From the NCBI RefSeq assembly GCF_006345805.1, contig NC_043007.1, forward strand, positions 77,190,001 to 77,254,000: 64,000 nucleotides of DNA, in the 5' to 3' direction. Numbering within the stretch: the first letter of the stretch is position 1; each line of letters opens with the position of its first letter. Both the position numbers and the translations under genes were made by a program. Under the pieces are notes generated by a model. That model saw only the letters and a list, made by a program, of their open reading frames with translations. It ran no database searches and had not been told where the DNA came from. The DNA is from Octopus sinensis. Lineage: Eukaryota. Positions 41,780-64,000 of the stretch are shown piece after piece.

Positions 41780-41876
<97 letters not shown>

Positions 41877-41889
41877 CATACAAAAATTA

Positions 41890-42082
41890 TTAGTATGATT
41901 ATGAGCATAATTATAATTAGGGTTCAGCAAAAATTTGCTTCACCACATACCGAAATTTTTGCTGAAGCCTATTATAGTTATATTCATACTTATAGAATTT
42001 GTGTATGAGTTTACCGATAATAGTTCTTTTAACAAACCGAACTACTTGGTCAAATTATTAATATAATTAATTAATGAATTAA

Positions 42083-42085
<3 letters not shown>
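41890..42085. repeat. Short foldback relative of the 57926-58472 element
   Basis: Hairpin TAGGGTTCAGCAAAAATTT...AAATTTTTGCTGAAGCCTA. The start resembles 57931-57972 and the tail TACTTGGTCAAATT...TAATTAATTAA resembles 58420-58452. Confidence 0.6.
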
Positions 42086-42131
<46 letters not shown>

Positions 42132-42304
42132 ATATTAGGGAATAAATCCAAATTTACAGGGAAAAAAATCAGATTTAGGATTAAATCCAATTTTATAGTA
42201 AAATATTATAAAATATTATTAGAGACAAAACCACTATTTTGCAAAACAAACAAGGAAAGACTAATCAATACATAAAATTTTAATAAATAGTCAAAAAAAA
42301 ACCG

Positions 42305-42347
42305 CCACTACAATTGTTTCTTGTCTTGATCGACAATCTTCAGGTGG
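42305..42347 (-). ncRNA. Minimal type-I hammerhead ribozyme with an intact consensus, in an AT-rich element ~42130-42645
   Basis: Reverse complement: CCAC-CTGAAGA-TTGTC-GATCAA-GACAA-GAAA-CAATTG-TA-GTGG. Stems I and II are perfect, stem III is palindromic and the cleavage triplet is GUA. Confidence 0.85.
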
Positions 42348-42650
42348 ACTTCCAATCTAAATATCAATATTTTAAAATAAAAAATAATATTTTAAAATAA
42401 TTAAAGTATGAATGAAAAAATATAAATATATAATCCATATAAACCTATGTATAATCCTAATTAATCAATATATCAAACAATATATAAAAAAAATAAACCT
42501 ATCAACAATTAAATATAAAATAAAAATATAAAATATAAAACAAAACAAAAAAATAATAATAATATAATAATAAACTAATATACACCCATACACATATACC
42601 TAATTATTATAACCATATAACTACATACACTAAATCACACCCCTATATAT

Positions 42651-43174
42651 GTTTTTTGAAAGTAATGGTTTTCTGATTGCAGCCCTCCTGTGAAATCCGG
42701 CTTTGTGCAGCTCCCGGCGAACAGTTTTTGTGAAAACTGGCTTCTCAAGGTGATCATTAAGCTCTGCAGTGATTTTGAGAGCTGTACTTTTATGATCCTT
42801 TCTAAACAATTTGCATAAGAATCCGACGGTCCCTATCTGAAAGTGTTGGTTTTCTTCCGGAGTTTGTTTCGACGAGGAAGGTTTTTCCCTCTTTCTCAAA
42901 AGCTATCATTACTTTTCGGCTGTTTTTGTTACGCTAGCGACTGCGATACGAGCACTAATAATCTGACCTCTTTGAAAGTCCGATAGATCTGTCATTTTAA
43001 TGAATCTTATTTACCTTTTTCTGATGATATCTGAAAAGAAACAGCAATTTTTGTAAAACATTAAACAACACTAATAATAAATCAAAAAACATAAAAATAA
43101 ACAAGCTTTTGAAAGTTCTATAGATATTTCAAAATTATGATGCTAAGTATTACCATTATTTTGTTCAACCCCTG
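42651..43174 (-). mobile_element. Truncated second copy (left half) of the Tc1-type element
   Basis: Reverse complement starts TA|CAGGGGTTGAACAAAATAATGGTAATAC. Encodes MTDLSDFQRGQI...KTVRRELHKAGFHRRAAIRKPLLSK with frameshifts. Confidence 0.92.
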
Positions 43175-43835: not shown

Positions 43836-44650
43836 TATGAGTGTGGCGTGGTTCACAGGCTGACTAAGGAGTTATCATATAGTAATTAAACTTGGCATGC
43901 ATTAAATGCAACTTTTACTGATGCTAGCCGTATTTTTTCTGTCCTGATAAATCCACATTAGATACAGAATTGAAGACTTGGAAAAGTTGTGCTAGAGATG
44001 TTTCGTGAAAATGGATAAAATTTGGCACCGCGGTGTTATCAAATATCTACAGAAAAGGGGGTTAGCCCCCAAGGACATTCATGCTAACATAGTTTCTAGA
44101 TGAGGGGATGATGCTCCAGCTTTATCAACTGTGCAAAAGCGGGTAGCTGAATTCAAGAGGGGTAGGGAGAGTCTTGAACATGACTAAAGATTCCGACATC
44201 CTGTCACAGCCACAACCCAAGAAATTGACCGTGTTCATCACATGGTGACGGATGACAAACGTTTACATGTTATTCAGACGAAGGAGGTCTTGTTTCATCA
44301 GGACAATACTCCGGCACACAAGACTGTGGTTGCAATGGCTGCTGTGCGCCACTGTGGCTTTAAACTAGTAGATCACTCTCCATATTCTATGATATGGAAC
44401 CATCTGACTATTTTCTCTTCCCCAACATGAAAAAAACATTTGGCTGGGAAGCAGTATCGGACCGATGATGAGGTCATATCTGCTGTTGAGATCTTTCTTG
44501 AAGGTCAGGATGAGAGCTTCTATACCACGGGAAACCAAGTGATGCAACACTGATGGAAGAAGTGTATGGACCCTACGTCGAAAAATCAAACATATTTGGT
44601 CGAGTTCGACCATTGCATCGTATTCAGCTTAGGGACTTTTAGTCCACCCT
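43836..44650 (+). mobile_element. Decayed mariner element with an internal deletion
   Basis: Transposase remnant inside. The termini are only loosely complementary, so boundaries are approximate. Confidence 0.8.
44011..44585 (+). pseudogene. Mariner (DDD-type) transposase pseudogene
   Basis: MDKIWHRGVIKYL...STVQKRVAEFKRGRESL fused directly to VLFHQDNTPAH...HSPYS/PSDYFLFPNMKKHLAGKQY. Contains stops and frameshifts, and the region with the first catalytic D is missing. Confidence 0.88.
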
Positions 44651-45190: not shown

Positions 45191-45604
45191 TATTTCTTTA
45201 TTGCCCATAAGGGGCTAAATATAGAGGGGACAAACAAGAATATACAAAGTGGTTAAGTCGATTATATCGACCCCAGTGCGTAACAGGTACTTAATTTATC
45301 GACTCCGAAATGATGAAAGGCAAAGTTGACCCCGGCGGAATTTGAACTCAGAACGTTGCGGCAGACGAAATACCTATTTCCTTACTACCCACAAGGGGCT
45401 AAACACAGAGAGGACAAACAAGGACAGACAAACTGATTAAGTCGAGTATATCGACCCCAGTAAGTAACTGGTACTTAATTTATCGACCCCGAAAGGATGA
45501 AAGGCAAAGTCGACCTCGGCGGAATTTGAACTCAGAACGTAGTGGCAGACGAAGTACCGCTAAGCATTTCGCCCGGCGTGCTAACGTTTCTACCAGCTCG
45601 CCTT
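45191..45604 (-). mobile_element. SINE family N dimer, 184-bp period
   Basis: TATTTC at 45191 and 45375; junction GAAATAC|CTATTTC. Confidence 0.92.
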
Positions 45605-54289: not shown

Positions 54290-57200
54290 ACTGCTACTTA
54301 TTTTATCGACCCCGAAAGGATGAAAGATAAAGTCGACCAAAGCGGAATTTTAATCCAGAATGAAAAGACGAACGAAATGTTATTAAGCATTTTGTTCGAT
54401 GTGTTATAGATTCTGCCAGCTTACCACATCCAAAATACCAAGCAACATCAAACACTGAAATAAGGTAGCGAGCTGGCAGAATCATTAGCACGCCAGGTAA
54501 AATGTTTAGCGGTATTTTGACCGTTTTTATGTTCCGAGTTCAAATTTCACCGAGATCTACTTTGCTTTTTTAATCCTTTCAGAATCGATCAAATAAGTAC
54601 TAGTTGAGCGCTAGGATCGATGTAATTGATATAGCCCTCCCCCGAAGTTGTTGGTCTTGTGCCAAATTTGAAAGCAATATGAAATATTGAAATATTGGTT
54701 TCAAACTTGGGCACAAGCCCATCATTTGTGGGGAAGAAGTGAGTAGACCTTAGTGCATAAATGGTACTTATTTTATTGAAACGGCAAATATAAGGAGCAA
54801 AGTCGATCTCGGCGTAATATGAACTCAAAATGTAAAGACGGACGAAATACCGCTAACGAATTTGCCAACTTGCTGCCTTAAAACATTGACATATTAATGA
54901 GTAGTATGTACGAATATCTAACAGAAATTCGTATTTGAGGTGAAGTAGACGATTAGTAAGGTAGTGAAATTGTAGAATCTTTGACCGATCACAAACGAAA
55001 AATGCAGTATTCTGTTCTGCTTTTTACGTTCAAAATTCATCGAAGTGAACCTTGACTTTCATTCCTTCGAGTTGTTGAAATAAAGAACCTGTCAAATCCT
55101 AGAGTCAATGTAAACGACTAAGTTCCTTCTCTTAAAATGCTGGCCTTGAATCCCGCAATCGAAAAGCACCTCATTCAGGGAGGATGTTGCAATCTCAGTC
55201 ACTTCTGCAGAGGGAGAACTGTGATCTAGATCACCTACCCGCCATGGGAGCAACGTAACCGAGCTTATTCATACGAATACTAGAGCTCGAGGAGAAATAA
55301 AAAATAGTAAGCTATTACTTTAAAATACTGCTGTTGTTGTTCTTGATGTTTAGCTAAGATTGTGGGTTCAAATACCGCCGAGGTTGACTTTGCCTCTCAT
55401 CTTTTAGGAGTTGATTTGATAAGTACCAGTTGAACACAGGGGTCAATGTAATCGACATACCCACTTCCCAAAATTTTTTAGCCTTATGCTAAAATTTGAA
55501 ATCAATATTTAGCTAAGATTAAGGCGATGAGCGGACAGAATCCTTAGGACGCCAGGCGAAGTGCTTGGCGGCATTTCGTCCGTCTTTACGTTCTAAGTTC
55601 AAATTCCGGTGTGTTCAGCTTTGACTTTCATGCTTCCGTGGTCGATAAATAAGTACCAGCTGAGCACTTGGTCGGTGTAATCGACTTACCCGGCCACCCA
55701 GAATTGCTGATCTTATGCCAAAATTTGAAACCAAAGCTCGCAGAATCGTTAGCACGCCGGATAAAATGCTTATCAGCATTTCATTCGACTTTGCCTTCTG
55801 AGTTCACATTCTGCCGTCGACTTTGCTATTCATCCATTCGGAGTCGGTAAATACGCGCCAACTGAACACTGGGGTCGATTTATTCGACGCACCCTTTCAC
55901 CAAAGTTACTGGTCTTATGCCAAAATTTGAAACTAATATTATGATCTATGCCATTTGTTCCCAACTATTTCAAAATGGTTCCCAAAATGGGTTCCCAACC
56001 CATTTATTTCAATGAGCTTTCCCACGGTCTCCTTTCAATATGCTTATCCCTTTATATATATATATATATTTGAAATTTTGAATTTAGTTCACGCCCCCCG
56101 CCTCCCAGTACTACTAGCGGGATCGTTACAGCACCGGACAAAATGCTTAGCAGTATTTCGTCCGTCTTTAGGTTTCTATGTTCAAATTCAGCCGCGGTCA
56201 GCTTTGCCTTTCATCTTTTCGGTGTCGATAACATAAGTACCAGTTAAATACTGAGGTCAATGAAATTGATTAGCTTTCACCTTCAAATTGCTCCCTTGTG
56301 ACAAAATTTAAAAAATTTAATATTTATCCAAGTTTAAGCGGATTTATAACCGAAAACTTTCCAAATTTATACTTCTGGTCTTATAAGACAGTTTAATTTA
56401 AGGGATATTTGGCTTATATTTCTAGCATGTTAAACGACTACATTAATCTTTTCTGACTTCGGTACAAACCAGAAATATCTTAGTATGTATGTACAATATC
56501 TTTTATCTACGATTGTATATAAAGATTTACGGAGATGTATTCGCATAGCAAGTGATTTGATCTGAGATCGTGTGCTGGAACGAAAACAATTGCAGCGTGG
56601 AAAGTGTTTGTAAGCCATTTAAGAAACACACAAAAGCCGTTCGATTCACTTCAACATTTAAGTTTAATTTGTCAAAATATTTTCGTCGCTAAAATCCGCG
56701 ATCTGTTCACTGACAAAAATCCGTGCTAAGAGTTTACACAATAATTCTGTCAGTCGACATGTTATTATTAAATTAATTACCCACCAACACCATTGCCACA
56801 ATTATAATCAAGATAACAACAATAATCCTTTCTGCTATAGGTATAGGTTCTGAAAATTTCTGAGAAGGGGTCTAGTAGGTTACATTGATCTCAGTACTCA
56901 AATGGTTTCTATTTCATATTTCATCGATCCCTGAAATGATGAAAGCAGAGTCAACATGACCTCGGCGGAATTTGAACTCAGAATGTAAAGATGGACAAAA
57001 TACCGCTCAGCATTTCCTCCGGCGTCTTAATGATTCTGCTCGCTCGACGCCTTAGACAACAATTATATCATTTCTAATATAGTCACAAGGTCTGAAATAT
57101 TAGTGGTGAGGCCTAATCAATGACTTAGACCTCGGTACCCAACTGATTTTTATTTCATATTTTATCGACCCGGAAAAGATGAAAGGCAAAGCCGACCTCG

Positions 57201-57760
57201 GCGGAATTTCAACTTAGAACGTAATGACGGACAAAATGCCACGAAGCATTTTGTCCGGTGTCTTAACCATTCTACTAGCTCACCACCTTAAACGAAAATA
57301 ATATCGGTTTCAAATTACATAACAATAATGTCCTTTCTATTATAGACACAAGGAATGGAATTTCTTGGAGTAAGGGTTTGTCAACCCCAGTGCTCAGCAG
57401 GTATCTCCATTATCAACTTCGGAAGAATGTAAAGCAAAATTGAACTTGATGGAATTTGAGCTACAGTATAAAGACGGACCAAACGCTGCTAAGAATTTCG
57501 TCCGGTTTATTAGCGATTCTACAATCTCGCCACCTTAAATGACAGTAGTATCGGCTTCAAATTTTGGCGCAAGATCAGCAACTGGGTGACAGTTAACGCT
57601 ATTATATCGACACCAGTATTCAGCTGGTACTCATTTTATCGACCCTTAAATGATGAAAGTCAAAGTCGACCTCGGCGGAATTTTAACTCGAACGCAAAAG
57701 TACTGGAGTCGACATACTAGAGTTAACTCTCACCCAAAAATTGCTGGAATTATCCAGTAA
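54290..57760. mobile_element. Dense cluster of more than 10 diverged SINE family N copies in both orientations
   Basis: Repeated variants of GTCGACTTTGCCTTTCATCC and GGCGGAATTTGAACTC throughout. Confidence 0.85.
56668..56717 (-). ncRNA. Hammerhead fold with variant core GUGAACA (G3-C8 swap)
   Basis: Reverse complement: TTTGTCA-GTGAACA-GATCGC-GGATTTTA-GCGAC-GAAA-ATAT-TT-TGACAAA. Perfect 7-bp stem I, stem II with one bulge, palindromic stem III. Confidence 0.65.
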
Positions 57761-57925
57761 TTTTTTTTTTTTTTTTGCTAGTTTATTTTGTCTCTTGTCT
57801 TCTCTACTGGTGGTGTATGAACATTTAATGTGGTTTTTAGAGTCAAATTTGGGCTGCTATTTCCAGCGCGGTGGTATCTCTTAGATACCCTAAATTATAA
57901 TTTTAATATATATATATATATATAT

Positions 57926-58375
57926 ATTATATAAAAGGGCTTAGTAAAATAAATTACTTTGCCGCATACTGAACTCGTTAGAAATAGCAGCTAAAAAAAA
58001 CTATTTCTAACACTTAAAGAAAACCTCTCTCATATAGTGCTTGCTCAATTCAACCCAAGAAAGTATGAGGGTAGAGACATTAAAAAATCAAATGCAAAGG
58101 TTATTTGAGTACGTACGTTTCAAGATTAGCCAAATTCGACCCTTCTCTCATGAGAGAAGGGTCGAATTTGGCTAATCTTGAAACGTACGTACTCAAATAA
58201 CCTTTGCATTTGATTTTTTAATGTCTCTACCCTCATACTTTCTTGGGTTGAATTGAGCAAGCACTATATGAGAGAGGTTTTCTTTAAGTGTTAGAAATAG
58301 TTTTTTTTAGCTGCTATTTCTAACGAGTTCAGTATGCGGCAAAGTAATTTATTTTACTAAGCCCTTTTATATAAT
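57926..58375. repeat. Perfect 450-bp spacer-less palindrome (225-bp arms) in a (TA)n-flanked element extending to ~58472
   Basis: Axis CTCTCA|TGAGAG at 58150/58151. No mismatch seen by eye out to 57926/58375. Confidence 0.95.
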
Positions 58376-58471
58376 GTAATAATTTGAATTTGCCTTAAAT
58401 GGTCCCTTTGCATACTGAATACTTGGTGAAATTGATTAATTAATTAATTAATTTTACCCTCAATTGTTGAA

Positions 58472-58506
<35 letters not shown>

Positions 58507-58816
58507 ATTATATATATATATACAGACACACACACATACATACATACATACATACATACATGCATACATACATACATACATACATATGTGTGTGTGCGTG
58601 CGTGCGCGCGCTCTTGCGCCTCAGTGTGAGTGAGAGTAATGTTTCGACAGATTTACACCAGTGACTGCTGTTCTTTTCCCTTCATTCCTCGTAGACTTAC
58701 AACAAAAGCTCCTGTCACGCTCTTTCTAGCTCTTCGTCCTCTCGCTCAATTATTTATCATCAACCACTTCCTCTCATCTTTAGCCCTTTCTCTGTCCTAC
58801 TCCACCTATCTCTGTA

Positions 58817-63279: not shown

Positions 63280-63832
63280 TTTCTACTCCAGGCACAAGGC
63301 CCGAAATTTTGGAGGAAGGGGCAGTCGATTAGATCGACACCAGTGCGTAACTGGTAGTTAATTTATCGACTCCGAAAGGATGAAAAGCAAAGTCGACCTC
63401 AGCAGAATTTGAACTCAGAACACAAAGACAGACGAAATACCTATTTCTTTACTACTCACAATGGGCTAAACGCAGAGGGGACAAACAAGGACAGACAAAC
63501 GGGTTAAGTCAATTATATCGACCCCAGTGCGTTACTGGTACTTAATTTATCGATCCCGAAAAGATGAAAGGCAAAGTCGACCTCGGCGGAATTTGAACTC
63601 AGAACGTAGCGGCAGACGAAATGCCAATTTCTTTACTACCCACAAGGGGATAAACACAGAGAGGACAAAACAAGGACAGAAAAACGGATTAATTCGATTA
63701 CATCGATCCCAGTGCGTAACTGGTACTTAACTTATCGACCTCGGCGGAATTTGAACTCAGAACGTAGCGGCAGACGAAATACTGCTATGCATTTCACCCG
63801 GCGTGCTAACGTTTCTGACAGCTCGCCGCCTT
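63280..63832 (-). mobile_element. SINE family N trimer
   Basis: Junctions at ~63441 and ~63625 (184-bp period). Full head ending CAGCTCGCCGCCTT at 63832. Confidence 0.92.
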
Positions 63833-64000
63833 TTCAGTCGCAGCTATTTCATTACACGCAGTTAATCAATATTTTTTAACTTTAGTACATCGGTCTCACA
63901 CCTTGAAGGATATTTTAACTTATCGGTACCGAAATAATCAAATGTAAAAGTGGTTCTTGGAAGAACTCAATAATAAGAAAAAACAACAACAGTTTCAAAT

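What the first reader, a model, noticed from the sequence alone, without database searches (positions are those of the whole stretch)
57926..58472. Perfect 450-bp palindrome whose axis lies just upstream of a hammerhead 3' half
Seen: 225-bp arms with no spacer and no visible mismatch, flanked by (TA)n, plus a ~95-bp unique tail on the right. Thirty bases from the axis is GAAA-CGTACG-TA (58180-58191), the GAAA/palindromic stem III/UH signature, with no intact CUGANGA (only CTCATGA straddling the axis). Established: spacer-less palindromes this long are usually unstable, and Penelope-like elements are known to produce inverted terminal repeats. Inference: the cDNA folded back at the ribozyme stem II hairpin and copied itself. 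Identical arms imply a very recent event or ongoing arm homogenisation.
Basis: partly seen in the sequence, partly recalled or inferred. Interest (0 to 1): 0.72.

Follow-up and report, generated by a model that had tools for sequence, protein, structure and literature searches.

The report
Twin-primed hammerhead retroelement stub
This perfect 450-base mirror repeat is one short, back-to-back insertion of a young ribozyme-carrying jumping element with over a thousand copies in this genome; it was likely made by copying one RNA from both cut DNA ends, not by folding back at the ribozyme hairpin, and its sister copies give a testable record of how Penelope-type elements insert.

Summary
The palindrome is real: 225-bp arms, no mismatch, no spacer, 97-bp one-sided tail. 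It is a 5'-truncated, head-to-head insertion of a non-coding 551-nt tandem hammerhead family (retrozyme type) with at least 1,030 insertions in (TA)n. Family copies carry the whole core; the window's axis cuts through it (CTG/ATGA), not stem II. Inverted copies pair two fixed ends 97 nt apart: 56 of 60 loci picked by axis alone, none with two short ends. Near-spacerless centres are routine (20 of 61, 3.8 expected). Their inner ends pile up just after the predicted cut site and at a second edge, with only 4 sites in stem II against 28 and 86. Only 5 of 56 fit simple fold-back. Identical arms reflect family youth, not homogenisation. Best reading: twin priming by a Penelope-type enzyme, then end-joining. 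The inverted-copy-plus-tail layout is published; the partner enzyme was not identified and no read spans this locus. Earlier notes of this scan report the same pattern on other DNA, in this genome and others.

The parts
57906..57925 (.). Left (AT)n target microsatellite
   Evidence: sequence; target duplication cannot be resolved inside (TA)n
57926..58150 (-). Inverted arm: monomer positions 230/231-454, ending at the family's inner fixed end (position 454)
   Evidence: 1,030 exact copies of this end joined to TA genome-wide
58147..58153 (+). Axis word CTCATGA in place of the family core CTGATGA; the two arms overlap by the 2 nt AT (58150-58151); ribozyme core broken and 5' strand of stem I absent
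   Evidence: this exact centre occurs once in the genome
58151..58375 (+). Direct arm: monomer positions 231-454
58154..58179 (+). Hammerhead stem II (predicted 4-bp plus 5-bp stem with 2x2 internal loop)
   Evidence: fold
58180..58195 (+). Hammerhead 3' half: GAAA, palindromic stem III CGTACG, TA, predicted cut at 58191/58192 (monomer 271/272), 3' strand of stem I
   Evidence: cleavage itself untested
58233..58239 (+). Second edge of family junctions (monomer 313-315), an initiator-like word; inferred RNA 5' end
   Evidence: 73 of 74 inner ends at or after 313; initiator consensus recalled, not tested
58376..58472 (+). One-sided 97-bp tail ending at the family's outer fixed end (position 551)
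58473..58522 (.). Right (TA)n target microsatellite
   Evidence: sequence

Best explanation
The palindrome is a 5'-truncated, head-to-head insertion of a non-coding 551-nt tandem hammerhead family in a (TA)n tract, likely made when a Penelope-type RT/GIY-YIG enzyme primed DNA synthesis from both cut target ends on one element RNA and the two new strands were likely joined end to end. Shown: family membership, two fixed outer ends (454 and 551) used one each per inverted insertion, arms from one source, 0-5 nt overlaps or short inserts at junctions. Inferred: one end primes at 454, the other at 551 (the tail is the distance between them); when both strands stop at the same place on the RNA the product is a near-spacerless palindrome; most such stops are RNA 5' ends (predicted ribozyme cut at 271/272; a second edge at 313-315). 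In this copy both strands ran about 41 nt past the cut site, so the template was uncut, circular or multimeric, and they were joined by the self-complementary AT inside the core. This copy is predicted to be catalytically dead.
For: End pairing: 56 of 60 loci chosen by axis only are 454/551, none 454/454; 59 of 61 inverted loci anchored on 454 end at 547-551; 21 of 22 inverted loci anchored on 551 end at 454. Position 454 is also the end of simple non-inverted copies, and the inverted arm is longer than a fold-back could make it in 26 of 61 loci. Coupled stops: |a-b|<=10 in 20 of 61, permutation mean 3.8, maximum 13 in 20,000. Sign of a-b: 17 positive, 25 negative, 14 zero; 5 of 56 fit fold-back with a loop of 3 nt or more. 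Edges: 37 of 38 inner ends at or after 273, 73 of 74 at or after 313. Arms of one insertion differ by 0.4-0.5% against 1.6-1.9% to other loci of the subfamily. PMC11167929 reports a Penelope-like protein that cuts and extends both target strands and starts at two RNA sites bounding the tail. The genome holds young RT plus GIY-YIG frames in (TA)n.
Against: No autonomous partner sharing this family's ends was found among 46 GIY-YIG stretches (tblastn blank). Rfam gives no hammerhead match for the window or a full monomer; the ribozyme call rests on motif, fold and stem covariation. The window's own axis (230) is at neither edge and is unique. A fold-back followed by later trimming of the centre could also give both signs of a-b. 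Copying the same RNA stretch twice needs strand displacement or two RNAs from one source, neither shown. PMC11167929 found unprocessed RNA to be the main substrate and no reads ending at its cut site. The edges come from pattern windows whose limits lie near them.
Confidence: 0.75

Rival explanations
1. Fold-back: the tail-primed cDNA snapped back on itself, copied itself, and was joined to the target at 454; later trimming shaped the centre (first reader's idea, without the stem II detail; close to the self-priming reading in PMC3846280).
For: All 21 symmetric loci have a direct arm at least as long as the inverted arm plus the tail. It explains coupled a and b and shared private variants directly. 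The window's centre differs by one base from a fold-back product with a 4-nt loop (by inspection).
Against: 3 of 21 and 5 of 56 junctions fit it without extra steps; 16 of 87 listed centres are perfect, several with 0-4 nt overlap and no room for a loop; it cannot make the 26 of 61 loci whose inverted arm is too long; stem II is not favoured.
Confidence: 0.15
2. Assembly or long-read chimera (fold-back read).
For: Perfect palindromes are a known artefact class (own knowledge); no record spans the locus; homopolymer indels between copies show the assembly has errors.
Against: The mirror stops exactly at the family's 454 end and does not extend into the flanks; the other side ends at the family's 551 end; 56 of 60 other centres share this layout. 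An artefact could at most have altered a base at the centre.
Confidence: 0.04
3. Old palindrome kept perfect by ongoing arm-to-arm conversion.
For: Zero differences over 225 bp.
Against: The arm is 225 of 225 identical to a copy on another chromosome (L002) and has no substitution against 8 of 14 top-scoring loci compared; symmetric loci are no more alike between arms than asymmetric ones (14/2,923 against 39/10,462 sites; 9 of 18 and 14 of 34 have no substitution).
Confidence: 0.03
4. A MITE or foldback DNA transposon with long terminal inverted repeats.
For: Long inverted arms in TA-rich target.
Against: Ends are unequal (454 and 551), centres vary from copy to copy, copies are 5'-truncated and form tandem arrays of a hammerhead monomer.
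Confidence: 0.02

Closest known systems
Metazoan non-LTR retrozymes (PMC7229834, passages seen; bioRxiv 10.64898/2026.07.22.740005, part 1 of 5 and passages seen)
   Same: Non-coding tandem monomers, one type I hammerhead each, low GC (34%), strongly self-paired RNA (z -4.9), proposed to be non-autonomous Penelope derivatives.
   Different: Monomer 551 nt (150-450 bp in PMC7229834; 51-972 bp in the preprint). The word 'inverted' occurs 0 times in the first main text and once, in a reference title, in the second; here most insertions are head-to-head with fixed ends. Circular RNA not tested.
Insertion units of endonuclease-bearing Penelope-like elements (PMC3846280 and PMC8557442, passages seen)
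   Same: 5'-truncated copies, an adjacent inverted copy, a tail at one end only, palindromes at the inverted junction, (TA)n preference.
   Different: No ORF; tail 97 nt rather than 30-40; those papers read the junction palindromes as self-priming or endonuclease resolution, whereas the counts here favour two primed strands.
Poseidon element PAc of Anolis in vitro (PMC11167929, passages and second half of the main text seen)
   Same: Two fixed start sites bounding the tail; AT-rich target; both strands extended.
   Different: That work did not show inverted products or one-of-each pairing in the parts I saw, and found no sign that ribozyme-cut RNA is used; here junction ends pile up at the predicted cut.
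L1 twin priming (recalled, not read here)
   Same: Second target end primes internally, giving a 5' inversion joined by short overlaps.
   Different: In L1 the internal site varies and the two pieces mostly cover different parts of the RNA; here it is fixed and both arms cover the same stretch.

Membership tests
Non-LTR retrozyme | Tandem monomers each with a type I hammerhead | tested here: met
   Arrays of about 553-bp period; motif in 32 of 32 loci with a full monomer, 73 of 81 monomers; core CTGANGA in 26 of 32 loci, CCGATGA in 6. The window copy itself has only the 3' half.
Non-LTR retrozyme | Hammerhead stems supported by covariation | tested here: met
   Stem I pair 4: T-A 25, T-G 4, C-G 2, unpaired 1 of 32; stem II keeps pairing across three subfamilies. 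No Rfam match.
Non-LTR retrozyme | Non-coding, GC below 50% | tested here: met
   Longest ATG frame 64 aa, GC 34%, no tblastn hit from 5 element proteins
Non-LTR retrozyme | Monomer size 150-450 bp | tested here: inconclusive
   544-556 nt: above the 2020 range, inside the 51-972 bp range of the 2026 preprint
Non-LTR retrozyme | Self-cleavage and circular RNA in cells | not testable with these tools
   Only contigs of runs guessed to be RNA were available
EN+ Penelope-like insertion unit | Inverted 5'-truncated copy with a tail at one end | tested here: met
   tail 97 nt, longer than the published 30-40
EN+ Penelope-like insertion unit | Microsatellite (TA)n target | tested here: met
   TA runs follow both ends in the loci, which were not chosen by their ends
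EN+ Penelope-like element (autonomous) | RT plus GIY-YIG ORF linked to these ends | tested here: not met
   None in the monomer; no linked ORF in 46 GIY-YIG stretches, only nested insertions. The search scored 150 of 5,029 candidates, so a partner is not excluded.
EN+ Penelope-like insertion unit | Target-site duplication | tested here: inconclusive
   Not resolvable inside (TA)n
MITE / foldback DNA transposon | Fixed element with equal terminal inverted repeats | tested here: not met
   Unequal ends, variable centres, centre unique in genome

The most novel reading that the evidence does not exclude
Every inverted insertion of this family is built by obligate one-of-each priming (positions 454 and 551) on a single RNA, and the near-perfect palindromes are run-off products whose centres map RNA 5' ends in the germline: one at the hammerhead cut site, showing that the ribozyme cuts in vivo and that cut RNA is a real template, and one at a transcription start near position 315.
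Probability: 0.45. Interest if true: 0.65.

Novelty: new variant of a known kind. Interest (0 to 1): 0.42.

Why it matters
The locus itself is an inert leftover. The family matters because how Penelope-type elements make inverted copies with a one-sided tail is named as open in PMC8557442, and the one in vitro study maps two start sites without explaining the inversions in the parts I read. A thousand young insertions give fixed start sites, junction rules and candidate RNA 5' ends that can be tested directly, and tie animal retrozymes to Penelope-type integration by insertion anatomy rather than by sequence likeness.

Tried and rejected
Rfam: nothing at gathering score in the window, no hammerhead at E<=10 on a full monomer. 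Apparent junction hot spots at positions 171 and 382 were artefacts of indels between subfamilies and were dropped after remapping. Stem II as axis: rejected. Arm homogenisation: rejected. Partner search: Pfam GIY-YIG scan (147 matches, 150 of 5,029 candidates scored); 30 short and 16 longer stretches showed only nested copies of this or a sister family. Reads: only assembled contigs were served; 4 genomic-type runs held flanks and family pieces but no piece spanned the locus and no empty-site joint was among those shown. No RNA holder listed; 4 runs guessed to be RNA held short family pieces, which says nothing on expression, strand or ends. Presence/absence polymorphism was therefore not tested. 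Literature searches for twin priming or head-to-head joining in Penelope elements returned no paper stating one-of-each end pairing; the library lacks most subscription papers, and supplements of PMC11167929 and PMC8557442, which may hold related consensus elements or insertion maps, were not opened.

Full report
Observation. The arms 57926-58150 and 58151-58375 are exact reverse complements over 225 bp with no spacer, followed by a 97-bp tail to 58472 and flanked by (TA)n. GAAA-CGTACG-TA starts at 58180 and no CTGANGA lies in the element. The window belongs to a 2.7-Gb genome; earlier scan notes call it octopus, which I did not test.

The family. The right arm plus tail drew 1,964 candidates; the 40 scored were 99-100% identical, mostly in tandem arrays of about 553-bp period. 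I number positions on one natural monomer (L013, 551 nt). Full monomers fall into three subfamilies 7-11% apart; the window copy is subfamily A. The monomer carries a whole type I hammerhead: core at 227-233, stem II 234-259, palindromic stem III, predicted cut at 271/272. The motif was found in 32 of 32 loci with a full monomer (73 of 81 monomers), with a T-A, T-G, C-G series in stem I. PMC4209133 (passages) describes such short palindromic helix III motifs as working in dimers. Rfam did not detect it. The monomer is non-coding, 34% GC, and folds at -157 against -120 +/- 8 kcal/mol for 40 shuffles.

Where the axis is. The window has CTCATGA where the family has CTGATGA; both arms reach position 230 and overlap by AT. 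The axis is inside the core, the 5' strand of stem I is missing, and the copy is predicted dead. This exact centre occurs once in the genome.

Two fixed ends. The end at 454 joined to TA occurs 1,030 times exactly; the end at 551 gave 777 forward matches (the reverse count is inflated by the variable gap). I fetched the first 80 of the 86 listed 454 sites on contig C1. 61 of 80 are head-to-head inversions; 59 of these end at 547-551 on the other side, 2 are cut short, none ends at 454. Of the other 19, three carry a tail piece too short to align, one runs into a gap, one runs out of the stretch, and the rest are simple truncated copies. From 44 listed 551 sites I fetched 34 (8 were already held, 2 lay inside fetched stretches) and oriented 33: 22 inverted, 21 with a 454 end and 1 with a second tail end; two of the 22 are duplicates of each other. 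In 60 loci chosen by their centre alone, 56 are 454/551, 3 are compound, 1 runs on into a further monomer, none is 454/454. This is the inverted-copy-plus-one-sided-tail layout of PMC3846280 and PMC8557442, and PMC11167929 ties the tail to two start sites of reverse transcription.

Symmetric centres are routine. With subfamily-matched references, the inner ends of the two arms lie within 10 nt of each other in 20 of 61 inversions; shuffling the pairs gives 3.8 on average and at most 13 in 20,000. Scaled to 1,030 sites this is roughly 250 near-perfect palindromes (estimate). Genome-wide patterns with a gap of up to 30 nt found 4 centres in the stem II window, 28 just after the cut site and 86 near 312-327; 5 more, two of them a local duplicate pair, sit on the palindromic stem III. 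The patterns differ in length and longer arms are rarer, so the ratios are rough. 16 of the 87 listed centres are perfect (read). In 20 of the 28 and 40 of the 86 sites, 37 of 38 inner ends lie at or after 273 and 73 of 74 at or after 313, although single ends could have reached 256 and 297. I read these edges as RNA 5' ends: the predicted cut and a possible start site at an initiator-like word (consensus recalled). A reverse-transcriptase block by structure is the alternative.

Mechanism. Fold-back of the tail-primed strand needs the inverted arm to start later than the direct arm by at least the overlap plus a 3-nt loop. This holds in 3 of 21 and 5 of 56 junctions; the sign is positive in 17, negative in 25, zero in 14. 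Fold-back of the 454-primed strand cannot supply the tail. In 26 of 61 inversions the inverted arm is too long to be a copy of the direct arm. Two separately primed strands joined by 0-5 nt overlaps or short templated inserts explain all classes. Both arms come from one source: same subfamily in 57 of 61, and 0.4-0.5% apart against 1.6-1.9% to other loci. Fold-back with later trimming of the centre is not excluded. The window copy ran past the cut site, so its template was uncut, circular or multimeric; why both strands stopped at 230 is not explained beyond the self-complementary AT there.

Age and artefact. The arm matches L002 on another chromosome at 225 of 225 and has no substitution against 8 of 14 top-scoring loci; half of the symmetric loci (9 of 18) have substitution-free arms, as do 14 of 34 asymmetric ones. 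Youth is enough. A read chimera would not stop at both family ends, but no record spans the locus.

Partner. The genome has many GIY-YIG frames, including a young 781-aa RT plus GIY-YIG family in (TA)n. None of 46 stretches examined shares this family's ends. The enzyme is inferred, not identified.

Known and new. The layout is published; the family, its 97-nt tail, the one-of-each pairing and the junction edges I did not find in print. My reading was recorded before I looked at earlier notes; those notes report the same twin-primed pattern in other families and genomes, and two of them (cut-site stops, start-site stops) prompted the edge test. They are unchecked AI notes and are not counted as support. 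Verdict: real, a variant of a known kind; the locus is ordinary, the family statistics are a useful handle on an open mechanism. Interest 0.42.

Noticed in passing
window 42128-42420, minus strand: A second hammerhead family in (TA)n with a complete core at 42343 (CTGAAGA, stem II, GAAA, palindromic stem III); related pieces, several as inverted pairs, in 8 fetched loci such as L041 and L175.
   Followed up: partly
window 41870-42087: Stub of a sister family whose end resembles this family's tail (86% over 44 nt); a palindromic copy of it lies in L167 2623-2880.
   Followed up: partly
L175-L178: Young RT plus GIY-YIG family (781-aa frame, CX4CxxC linker as described for Neptune-type elements, a second upstream frame) in (TA)n; its 3' end has a hammerhead-like motif with TTGATAA in place of the core, seen by eye in L167 and L175.
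   Followed up: partly
L193/L194 (G000:C6:61364540 and 61365591); also C13:56756494/56756650 and C5:94203155/94203592: The same junction occurs twice within 0.2-1 kb, and L125/L127 share flanks 2.4 Mb apart: local duplication, compound insertion or assembly duplication.
   Followed up: partly
L031, L057, L059, L062, L096: Junctions carry 14-35 nt inserts copied from nearby arm sequence, resembling polymerase-theta-type end joining (recalled).
   Followed up: no
L002 (G000:C3:132757667-132758236): A near twin of the window copy with a 22-nt asymmetric centre at the same core region; several other ends fall at 207-237, a possible weak third cluster not tested.
   Followed up: no
window 42630-42902 (-) and 44188-44430 (+): Short frames that look like Tc1/mariner transposase fragments (resemblance recalled).
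   Followed up: no
window 57135-57305, 57590-57690, 63300-63850, 45191-45558: Many copies of a SINE-like repeat, partly in 184-bp tandems; very high depth in genomic runs.
   Followed up: no
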